A stretch of DNA of 32,977 bases. Source: Eledone cirrhosa. Its lineage: Eukaryota. The stretch covers positions 1 through 32,977 of the forward strand of contig CAXHJY010001276.1 in the NCBI GenBank assembly GCA_964016885.1, given 5' to 3'. The notes under the pieces were generated by a model. The model did no database searches. It was not told the DNA's origin and saw only the letters and a program-made list of their open reading frames with translations. The first letter of the stretch is position 1. Each line of letters begins with the position of its first letter. Below are positions 13,283 through 13,430 of the stretch, piece by piece. Both the position numbers and the translations under genes were made by a program.

Positions 13283-13430
13283 ATTATTTCTGAAGACGGC
13301 ATATATATGTGTTGGTATGTATATTTAATTTTGATAGTTTGTATAATTTTGTATAATTTTGTACATAGATCTGTTGAATATACATGCCAATTCTAACACA
13401 TATATATCCTAGAAACGATCGTTAAATAAT
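13283..13430 (+). ncRNA. Type I hammerhead ribozyme with about 115-nt stem II
   Basis: attattt|CTGAAGA|long hairpin (atatatatgtgttgg...ctaacacatatatat)|GAAA|cgatcg|TT|aaataat: 7-bp stem I and palindromic stem III. Confidence 0.72.

What the first reader, a model, noticed from the sequence alone, without database searches (positions are those of the whole stretch)
13283..13430. Hammerhead with an approximately 115-nt stem II; the palindrome folds exactly at its 5' edge
Seen: the core CTGAAGA (13290-13296) and GAAA (13412-13415) are separated by a long imperfect hairpin, with a 7-bp stem I and palindromic CGATCG stem III. The symmetry axis (13282) is the base just before stem I. Established: PLE hammerheads are usually compact, and palindromic stem III favours dimeric cleavage. 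Inference: this long-arm variant would be missed by length-limited motif searches, and the RNA structure may set where cDNA fold-back occurs.
Basis: partly seen in the sequence, partly recalled or inferred. Interest (0 to 1): 0.72.

Follow-up and report, generated by a model that had tools for sequence, protein, structure and literature searches.

The report
Giant-armed hammerhead in twin-primed Penelope stub
This is a predicted self-cutting hammerhead RNA motif at the front end of a young, thousands-of-copies Penelope-like jumping gene, with one arm four to five times longer than in described relatives, and the mirror point beside it likely marks where the element's RNA starts rather than a fold-back caused by the long arm.

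Summary
Observation confirmed. The motif is the hammerhead of a young Hydra-clade Penelope-like element (4,556 exact matches to a 47-mer). Its 115-nt stem II is kept at about 100-115 nt across subfamilies, with compensatory changes; the 5' core varies only at N7. Published Hydra hammerheads have at most 26 nt there; Rfam misses it. Cleavage is untested; a monomer is predicted to sit in an off fold.

The axis is a family-wide hot spot: 41 of 95 arms begin at -3..+9. The long arm does not cause it: a family with a 12-nt stem II shows the same (14 of 30). Simple cDNA fold-back fails: 27 of 28 inverted pairs join a +214 arm to a +351 arm, and in 7 the arms do not overlap. Likely two primed cDNAs run off the RNA 5' end (probably the transcription start) and are joined head to head. 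At most 40 copies start at the cut site, so templates were mostly uncut.

The scan noted both points before, on other DNA of this and other genomes (unreviewed).

The parts
12931..13281 (-). Long arm of the insertion: pLTR positions +1 to +351 (with the 'tail'), carrying the mirror hammerhead at 13134-13281
   Evidence: BLAST to a natural copy
13282..13282 (.). Single central base at the head-to-head junction (T; the native base at this position is C)
13283..13289 (+). Stem I 5' strand; its first base is +1, the family-wide 5'-end hot spot and inferred RNA start
13290..13296 (+). Hammerhead core CUGANGA
   Evidence: only N7 varies in 26 unselected subfamily arms
13297..13411 (+). 115-nt stem II: C.A mismatch, 2 bp, C.C mismatch, long helix, conserved inner hairpin
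13412..13423 (+). GAAA, palindromic stem III (13415-13422) and GUU triplet; predicted cut between 13423 and 13424
   Evidence: hammerhead consensus as in PMC4209133
13424..13430 (+). Stem I 3' strand
13431..13612 (-). Later SINE-like insertion with 9-bp target duplication (13422-13430 and 13613-13621); A/B-box-like motifs read by eye
13613..13687 (+). Rest of the short arm, +140 to +214, ending in (TA)n
12628..12759 (.). Separate insertion of family D (compact hammerhead at 12700-12750, 12-nt stem II): inverted +69..+139 arm joined to a +1..+60 arm; internal control
13736..14239 (+). GIY-YIG endonuclease end of a different Hydra-type family (B), 39-41% identical in protein to the hammerhead's own family
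14729..14852 (+). Family B hammerhead-like motif with an 85-nt stem II region (core 14737-14743, GAAA at 14829)

Best explanation
The stretch is the predicted type I hammerhead at the front of the pseudo-LTR of a young Hydra-clade Penelope-like element, with a conserved 100-115-nt stem II, sitting in a short head-to-head insertion that was likely made by two separately primed cDNAs running off the 5' end of the element's RNA. Shown: family, copy numbers, conservation, two fixed 3' ends (+214, +351), the 5'-end hot spot at +1. Inferred: the enzyme cuts (TA)n DNA and primes from both ends, at +214 and +351, on one RNA or RNAs of one source copy; the cDNAs are joined by end joining; +1 is the start site of an internal promoter, so the hammerhead is the first thing in the transcript. 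Predicted: the monomer mostly folds into an off state (stem I 5' strand and core paired with the GAAA side), and cutting after 13423 needs a dimer through stem III or the element's protein, so most RNAs that get copied are uncut.
For: ORF of a full copy: 806 aa, RT plus C-terminal GIY-YIG, Hydra motifs. 4,556 and 4,848 exact matches for two subfamily motifs. 98.3% of 539 cells paired, 30 cells with both sides changed, 0 of 500 shuffles, slid controls 24-54% paired; subfamily A3 replaces the AU-rich base of stem II with a GC-rich helix. 41 of 95 position-ordered arms begin at -3..+9, 16 exactly at +1, 12 in +10..+139. 27 of 28 adjacent inverted pairs are +214/+351; in 7 the long arm starts beyond +214. 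Arms share minor alleles in 19 of 29 pairs. Compact family D: 14 of 30 arms at 0..+9, 8 of 9 pairs short/long. C|A at +1 in A1, A2, A3, B and D. 428 of 5,887 +1 motifs carry G in place of the native C. At most 40 copies begin at the cut site with a non-T before it. A related protein cuts and extends both strands and starts at two internal sites (PMC11167929); Drosophila virilis Penelope has an internal promoter (PMC2377424).
Against: No cleavage or RNA-end data. The extra-G signal is weak: G at position 0 in 11 of 74 non-native junctions and 0 of 74 at -1, but 8 of 74 at -2, and several are explained by the partner arm. Family B clusters less (7 of 35 rows at -3..+9), and its stem II is no more stable than shuffles (z -0.3). 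The number of pairs with two-sided change (6) does not beat shuffles (210 of 500); the 18 rows are about five lineages, chosen by me from 95 plus the A3 copies. The window's own arms differ at +100, where both alleles are common. A downstream-promoter-like AGACGT at +28..+33 is present only in A3. C.A at 10.1/11.1 and the GUU triplet may make cutting poor (Perreault et al. report U.U as the best tolerated mismatch there).
Confidence: 0.65

Rival explanations
1. The +1 end is made by processing, not transcription: a longer read-through RNA is trimmed or cut back to the base of stem I, so the hammerhead fold does define the end that both cDNAs run off. This is the surviving form of the first reader's idea, without fold-back and without a role for arm length.
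For: The hot spot coincides with the 5' edge of stem I in families A and D. Stem I can extend one pair upstream of +1 (C0-G149 in 16 of 18 rows), which needs read-through RNA.
Against: C|A initiator-like context at +1 in five lineages; some junctions carry a G before +1 that neither arm templates (L032, L045, L099, L104); the predicted monomer fold leaves +1..+4 unpaired.
Confidence: 0.15
2. The element's own GIY-YIG nuclease cuts the new DNA at the ATT at +1 while resolving the intermediate, and the cut ends are joined.
For: [quoted passage not shown]
Against: Many other ATT motifs nearby are not hot spots; repeated short copies of the +1 sequence at some junctions (L045, L055, L058) look like repeated re-priming at a template end.
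Confidence: 0.1
3. One cDNA (or an antisense template, as proposed in PMC3846280) folds back and primes itself at a point set by the RNA structure.
For: Most pairs have overlapping, nearly identical arms that share alleles. Self-priming is the published reading of Penelope junction palindromes.
Against: 7 of 28 pairs have a long arm lying wholly beyond +214 joined to a short arm, and the window's family D insertion is of this kind; both +214 and +351 also end solo copies.
Confidence: 0.07
4. The motif no longer cuts and is kept only as a structural or promoter element; the long stem II is a neutral expansion.
For: Almost no copies start at the cut site; the cut was not needed for insertion in vitro in the Anolis element; the predicted active fraction is about 3e-4.
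Against: Across subfamilies the core changes only at N7 and H17, the two free positions, and stems I and II change in compensated fashion.
Confidence: 0.15

Closest known systems
Hammerheads of Hydra-clade Penelope-like elements (Craig et al. 2021, PMC8557442; seen: passages, section 11, supplement parts 1-2 of 59)
   Same: Type I hammerhead in the pLTR, short self-complementary stem III, often GUU or GUA triplet, frequent mismatch at 10.1/11.1, (TA)n targets, inverted 5' copy and tail.
   Different: All 26 Hydra rows of File S2 have at most 26 nt between the core halves; here 97-118 nt in 94 of 95 distinct family-A sequences. The longest in that table are about 50 nt, in two spike-moss PLE-X elements. 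The tail is about 137 nt, not 30-40.
Minimal PLE hammerheads (Cervera and de la Pena 2014, PMC4209133; seen: parts 1-2 of 4)
   Same: Dimer-type architecture with palindromic stem III; low expected activity; in D. virilis a transcript landmark (intron end) also maps to the 5' end of helix I.
   Different: Helix II there is 6-8 bp with a conserved G10.1-C11.1 pair; here a C.A mismatch and a rod of over 100 nt.
Poseidon element of Anolis in vitro (Frangieh et al. 2024, PMC11167929; seen: parts 1-2 of 4)
   Same: Two internal reverse-transcription starts that define the tail, both strands cut and extended, uncut RNA as template, protein-assisted hammerhead.
   Different: Different clade; compact hammerhead overlapping the start codon; the parts read give no account of inverted pairs or of a 5'-end hot spot.
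Twin priming of LINE-1 (as summarised in PMC10760644; seen: passages)
   Same: Two primings at the target, cDNAs joined by microhomology, giving an inversion.
   Different: Here both priming sites are fixed and internal, and the two cDNAs often overlap completely.
Discontinuous mammalian Clec2 hammerheads (as summarised in PMC2950038; seen: passages)
   Same: A large insertion hides the ribozyme from pattern searches.
   Different: The search there allowed insertions in loops 1 or 3 of mRNA 3' UTR ribozymes; here the extra sequence is a paired, covarying stem II in a retroelement.

Membership tests
Type I hammerhead ribozyme | Core CUGANGA, GAAA and NUH in order | tested here: met
   24 CTGAAGA, 2 CTGAGGA, 4 truncated among 30 loci not selected on the 5' core
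Type I hammerhead ribozyme | Three stems around the core with open stem I | tested here: met
   7-bp stem I, long stem II, 2-bp monomer or 8-bp dimer stem III; compensatory changes in stems I and II
Type I hammerhead ribozyme | Canonical G10.1-C11.1 pair | tested here: not met
   C.A in 5 of 6 family-A sequences folded, U-A in one; mismatches here are common in the published Hydra table and C.A occurs in PLE-X1_cBra
Type I hammerhead ribozyme | Match to an Rfam hammerhead model | tested here: not met
   no hammerhead hit at E<=10 over 13283-13430; expected for this insertion length
Type I hammerhead ribozyme | Self-cleavage after H17 | not testable with these tools
   no assay; at most 40 genomic copies start at the site
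Hydra-clade Penelope-like element | Single ORF with RT and C-terminal GIY-YIG | tested here: met
   806-aa open frame in L061; 120 homologues at E<=1e-20; domains read by eye, since Pfam gave no hit at E<=0.01
Hydra-clade Penelope-like element | RWK-like, DKT and CxCX5C motifs; CxxC and CxH in the nuclease; no CCHH | tested here: met
   RWR, DKT, CNCRNKANC, CRLC, CNH read against the definitions; absence of CCHH judged by eye
Hydra-clade Penelope-like element | Insertion into (TA)n; pLTR, inverted copy and tail | tested here: met
Hydra-clade Penelope-like element | Generally short (<3 kb) | tested here: not met
   hammerhead-to-hammerhead distance 6,425 bp in L061, much of it simple repeats; a tendency in the paper, not a strict rule
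Hydra-clade Penelope-like element | Placement in the Hydra clade of an RT tree | not tested
   no tree built
Non-LTR retrozyme | Head-to-tail tandem repeats of a short non-coding unit | tested here: not met
   copies are solo, head-to-head, or flank an ORF; definition from bioRxiv 10.64898/2026.07.22.740005, part 1 of 5

The most novel reading that the evidence does not exclude
These elements have turned stem II into a large conserved module that holds the hammerhead off at the capped 5' end of the RNA and docks the element's protein, so that uncut RNA is copied and cut RNA has another fate such as translation; a protein dimer primes twice on one RNA, which would explain the inverted pLTR plus one-sided tail seen across Penelope-like elements.
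Probability: 0.3. Interest if true: 0.75.

Novelty: new variant of a known kind. Interest (0 to 1): 0.52.

Why it matters
Two open questions about Penelope-like elements become testable: what their hammerheads are for, and how their inverted ends arise. Thousands of young copies record the RNA start, two priming sites and the near absence of cut templates, with a compact-hammerhead family as built-in control. A natural hammerhead with over 100 nt in stem II also means that length-limited searches undercount these ribozymes.

Tried and rejected
Rfam: only miRNA-type hairpin matches caused by the palindrome, all below gathering scores. Repeat finder was swamped by (TA)n. RNA data: no RNA holder listed; contigs of 4 of the 6 runs showed subfamily variants but cannot show ends. 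I first took the GIY-YIG frame at 13736-14239 for this element's own gene; rejected. An apparent second hot spot at -199 was the end of my reference. An excess of 5' ends at the cut site was sought: 40 matches; of 30 examined, 7 were point changes at H17, 9 were joints through stem I microhomology and 14 other joints, so at most a minor class. An automatic hammerhead scan upstream of 30 ORF starts missed family D, which I then found by eye in partly cut output; no hammerhead was located for the fifth family (L247, L248). Literature searches and passages of PMC3088659, PMC6155905 and PMC7936874 showed no PLE hammerhead with a stem II near 100 nt and no twin-priming model for PLEs; subscription papers and most supplements, including that of PMC4209133, were not seen.

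Full report
Coordinates: +1 is window 13283. 'Family A' is the element that owns the finding's hammerhead; B and D are other families in the window. The host is likely an octopus (inference from the 3-Gb, microsatellite-rich assembly and earlier unreviewed notes; not tested).

1. Observation. Every stated coordinate is right. The arms mirror around 13282 for 148 bp with one mismatch. The hairpin is far more stable than shuffles (z -5.5; stem II alone z -7.3). Both outer ends lie in (TA)n. It has no ORF.

2. What it belongs to. The 148-mer has 23 identical places among 40 scored of 475 candidates. Exact motif counts are 4,556 for subfamily A1 and 4,848 for A2; reversed-pattern controls gave 0. 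A full copy (L061) has two hammerheads 6,425 bp apart around an 806-aa frame with RT and C-terminal GIY-YIG features and the Hydra motifs RWR, DKT and CxCX5C. Pfam gave no hit for this protein at E<=0.01, and no tree was built. The GIY-YIG frame next to the finding (PF01541, E 3.4e-5) belongs to family B (39-41% identity).

3. Is the hammerhead under selection? In 30 A2 loci picked on the 3' side, the 5' core was CTGAAGA in 24, CTGAGGA in 2 and cut off in 4: only N7 varies. H17 is U in A1 and A in A2 and A3. Stem II spans 97-118 nt in 94 of 95 distinct sequences (these were selected on the core motifs) and 98-104 nt in A3, one deleted copy aside. On 18 hand-picked natural copies, 98.3% of 539 cells pair, 30 cells change on both sides (0 of 500 shuffles), and slid structures pair 24-54%. 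Stem I shows U-A, U-G and C-G at one pair; the base of stem II is AU-rich in A1 and GC-rich in A3 with the same two mismatches. Caveats: about five lineages; the structure came from the same alignment; the count of pairs with two-sided change (6) is not above shuffles (210 of 500); the middle helix is poorly aligned in A3. Family B has the same mismatch, 2 bp, mismatch, helix pattern and 85 nt; its basal helix forms in 24 of 25 variants, but its stability is not above shuffles (z -0.3). All 26 Hydra rows of File S2 in PMC8557442 have at most 26 nt here. Rfam does not see either long motif at E<=10.

4. Would it cut? Unknown. As a monomer stem III has 2 bp; as a dimer an 8-bp duplex (-10.0 kcal/mol). 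In all 6 family-A sequences folded, the lowest-energy state pairs the stem I 5' strand and part of the core with the GAAA side, 3.5-5.6 kcal/mol below the active fold (the model ignores tertiary contacts). Published minimal PLE hammerheads cut weakly and as multimers (PMC4209133); the Anolis one needs its protein, and uncut RNA is the template (PMC11167929). Here at most 40 copies begin at the cut site with a non-T before it, against 4,556 that run through it; of 30 examined, 7 were mere point changes. Copies with a T there by chance are not counted. So copied RNAs were mostly uncut. A role of cutting in translation, as shown for viral UTR hammerheads (PMC13725137, passages), is a possibility only.

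5. The axis. From the first 100 matches along contig C1 (selected on +139..+185, so blind to the 5' end), 95 distinct arms were recovered. Their 5' ends: 41 at -3..+9 (16 at +1), 12 at +10..+139, 17 at -189..-4 (some are alignment breaks), 25 beyond the reference; arms of one insertion are not independent. Of 28 adjacent inverted pairs, 27 join an arm ending near +214 to one ending near +351, and the short arm starts at -8..+9 in 23. In 7 pairs the long arm starts at +232 to +316, beyond the end of the short arm. A cDNA primed at +214 cannot supply +215..+351 by folding back, and one primed at +351 that stopped at +296 cannot supply +1..+214, so two primings are needed. Both ends also close solo copies. 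Arms share minor alleles in 19 of 29 pairs (8 of these came from the biased first search) and differ at common polymorphic sites in 6, the window's pair among them: mostly one RNA or one source copy. This fits the two internal starts and two-strand extension of the Anolis protein and resembles LINE-1 twin priming; the published reading of such palindromes is self-priming (PMC3846280, passages).

6. Control for arm length. Family D (17,196 matches) has a 12-nt stem II. Of 30 position-ordered arms, 14 start at 0..+9 from its stem I edge, and 8 of 9 inverted pairs are short/long. The window's own D insertion (12628-12759) joins a +69..+139 arm to a +1..+60 arm. Family B is less sharp (7 of 35 rows, two of them duplicates). 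The long arm is therefore not what places the axis.

7. What is +1? Most likely the start of an internal promoter: C|A context in A1, A2, A3, B and D; precedent in D. virilis Penelope (PMC2377424, passages); 428 of 5,887 motifs with G instead of the native C (1,946 keep the exact native upstream), and an untemplated G is read as a cap mark for LINE-1 (PMC9341517, passages). The G signal is weak in my sample (11 of 74 at position 0, 0 at -1, 8 at -2). Processing to the stem I edge and a nuclease cut at ATT remain rivals. No RNA data were available.

8. Earlier notes. After reaching this reading I looked up the scan's notes. Several unreviewed notes on other DNA of this and other genomes report long stem II hammerheads in Hydra-type elements and twin priming to the RNA start. 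They agree but are not independent support. One lead, a conserved hairpin behind each 3' end, was checked on one copy only and gave weak folds (-2.7 and -4.3 kcal/mol): inconclusive.

9. Verdict. Real; a new variant of a known kind. Interest 0.52.

Noticed in passing
window 14729-14852 (+): Second hammerhead-like motif with an 85-nt stem II region, at the end of family B (1,037 exact matches to a 40-mer), about 500 nt behind its GIY-YIG frame; it also has two fixed 3' ends (+172, +338).
   Followed up: partly
window 12628-12759: Family D insertion with a compact hammerhead and non-overlapping inverted arms; used as control.
   Followed up: yes
window 13431-13612; L159, L165, L166/L167, L174: The same SINE-like element inserts with its ATT-rich tail into a stem I strand: once in the window and five times exactly at +1 in 30 A2 loci (two in a row in L166). 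May simply reflect its target preference.
   Followed up: partly
L032, L045, L055, L058: Short repeated copies of the +1 sequence at the head-to-head junction, suggesting repeated re-priming or templated end joining.
   Followed up: partly
L277, L279, L285, L290, L292, L295, L296, L300, L302, L119: Joints in which one arm's +1 end is fused to the other arm at the predicted cut site through stem I complementarity (9 of 30); could be rare cut templates or plain microhomology.
   Followed up: partly
window 13345-13390; alignment A2 columns 56-94: An inner hairpin with an asymmetric internal loop is kept in all family-A subfamilies, and a similar stretch is seen by eye in family B; candidate protein site.
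   Followed up: partly
window 15144-15307 and 15556-15936: Two further near-perfect palindromes (164 and about 376 bp), not analysed.
   Followed up: no
window 7833-10793 (+): L1-like element with endonuclease, RT and zf-RVT matches, split over three frames.
   Followed up: no
window 16046-18019, 21505-22395, 23218-23790: Fragments of other LINE-like reading frames among long (TA)n tracts.
   Followed up: no
window 18321-18376: Short diverged piece of the family D pLTR (86% identity).
   Followed up: no
L247, L248: A fifth Hydra-type family whose hammerhead was not located in 800 nt upstream of the ORF.
   Followed up: no
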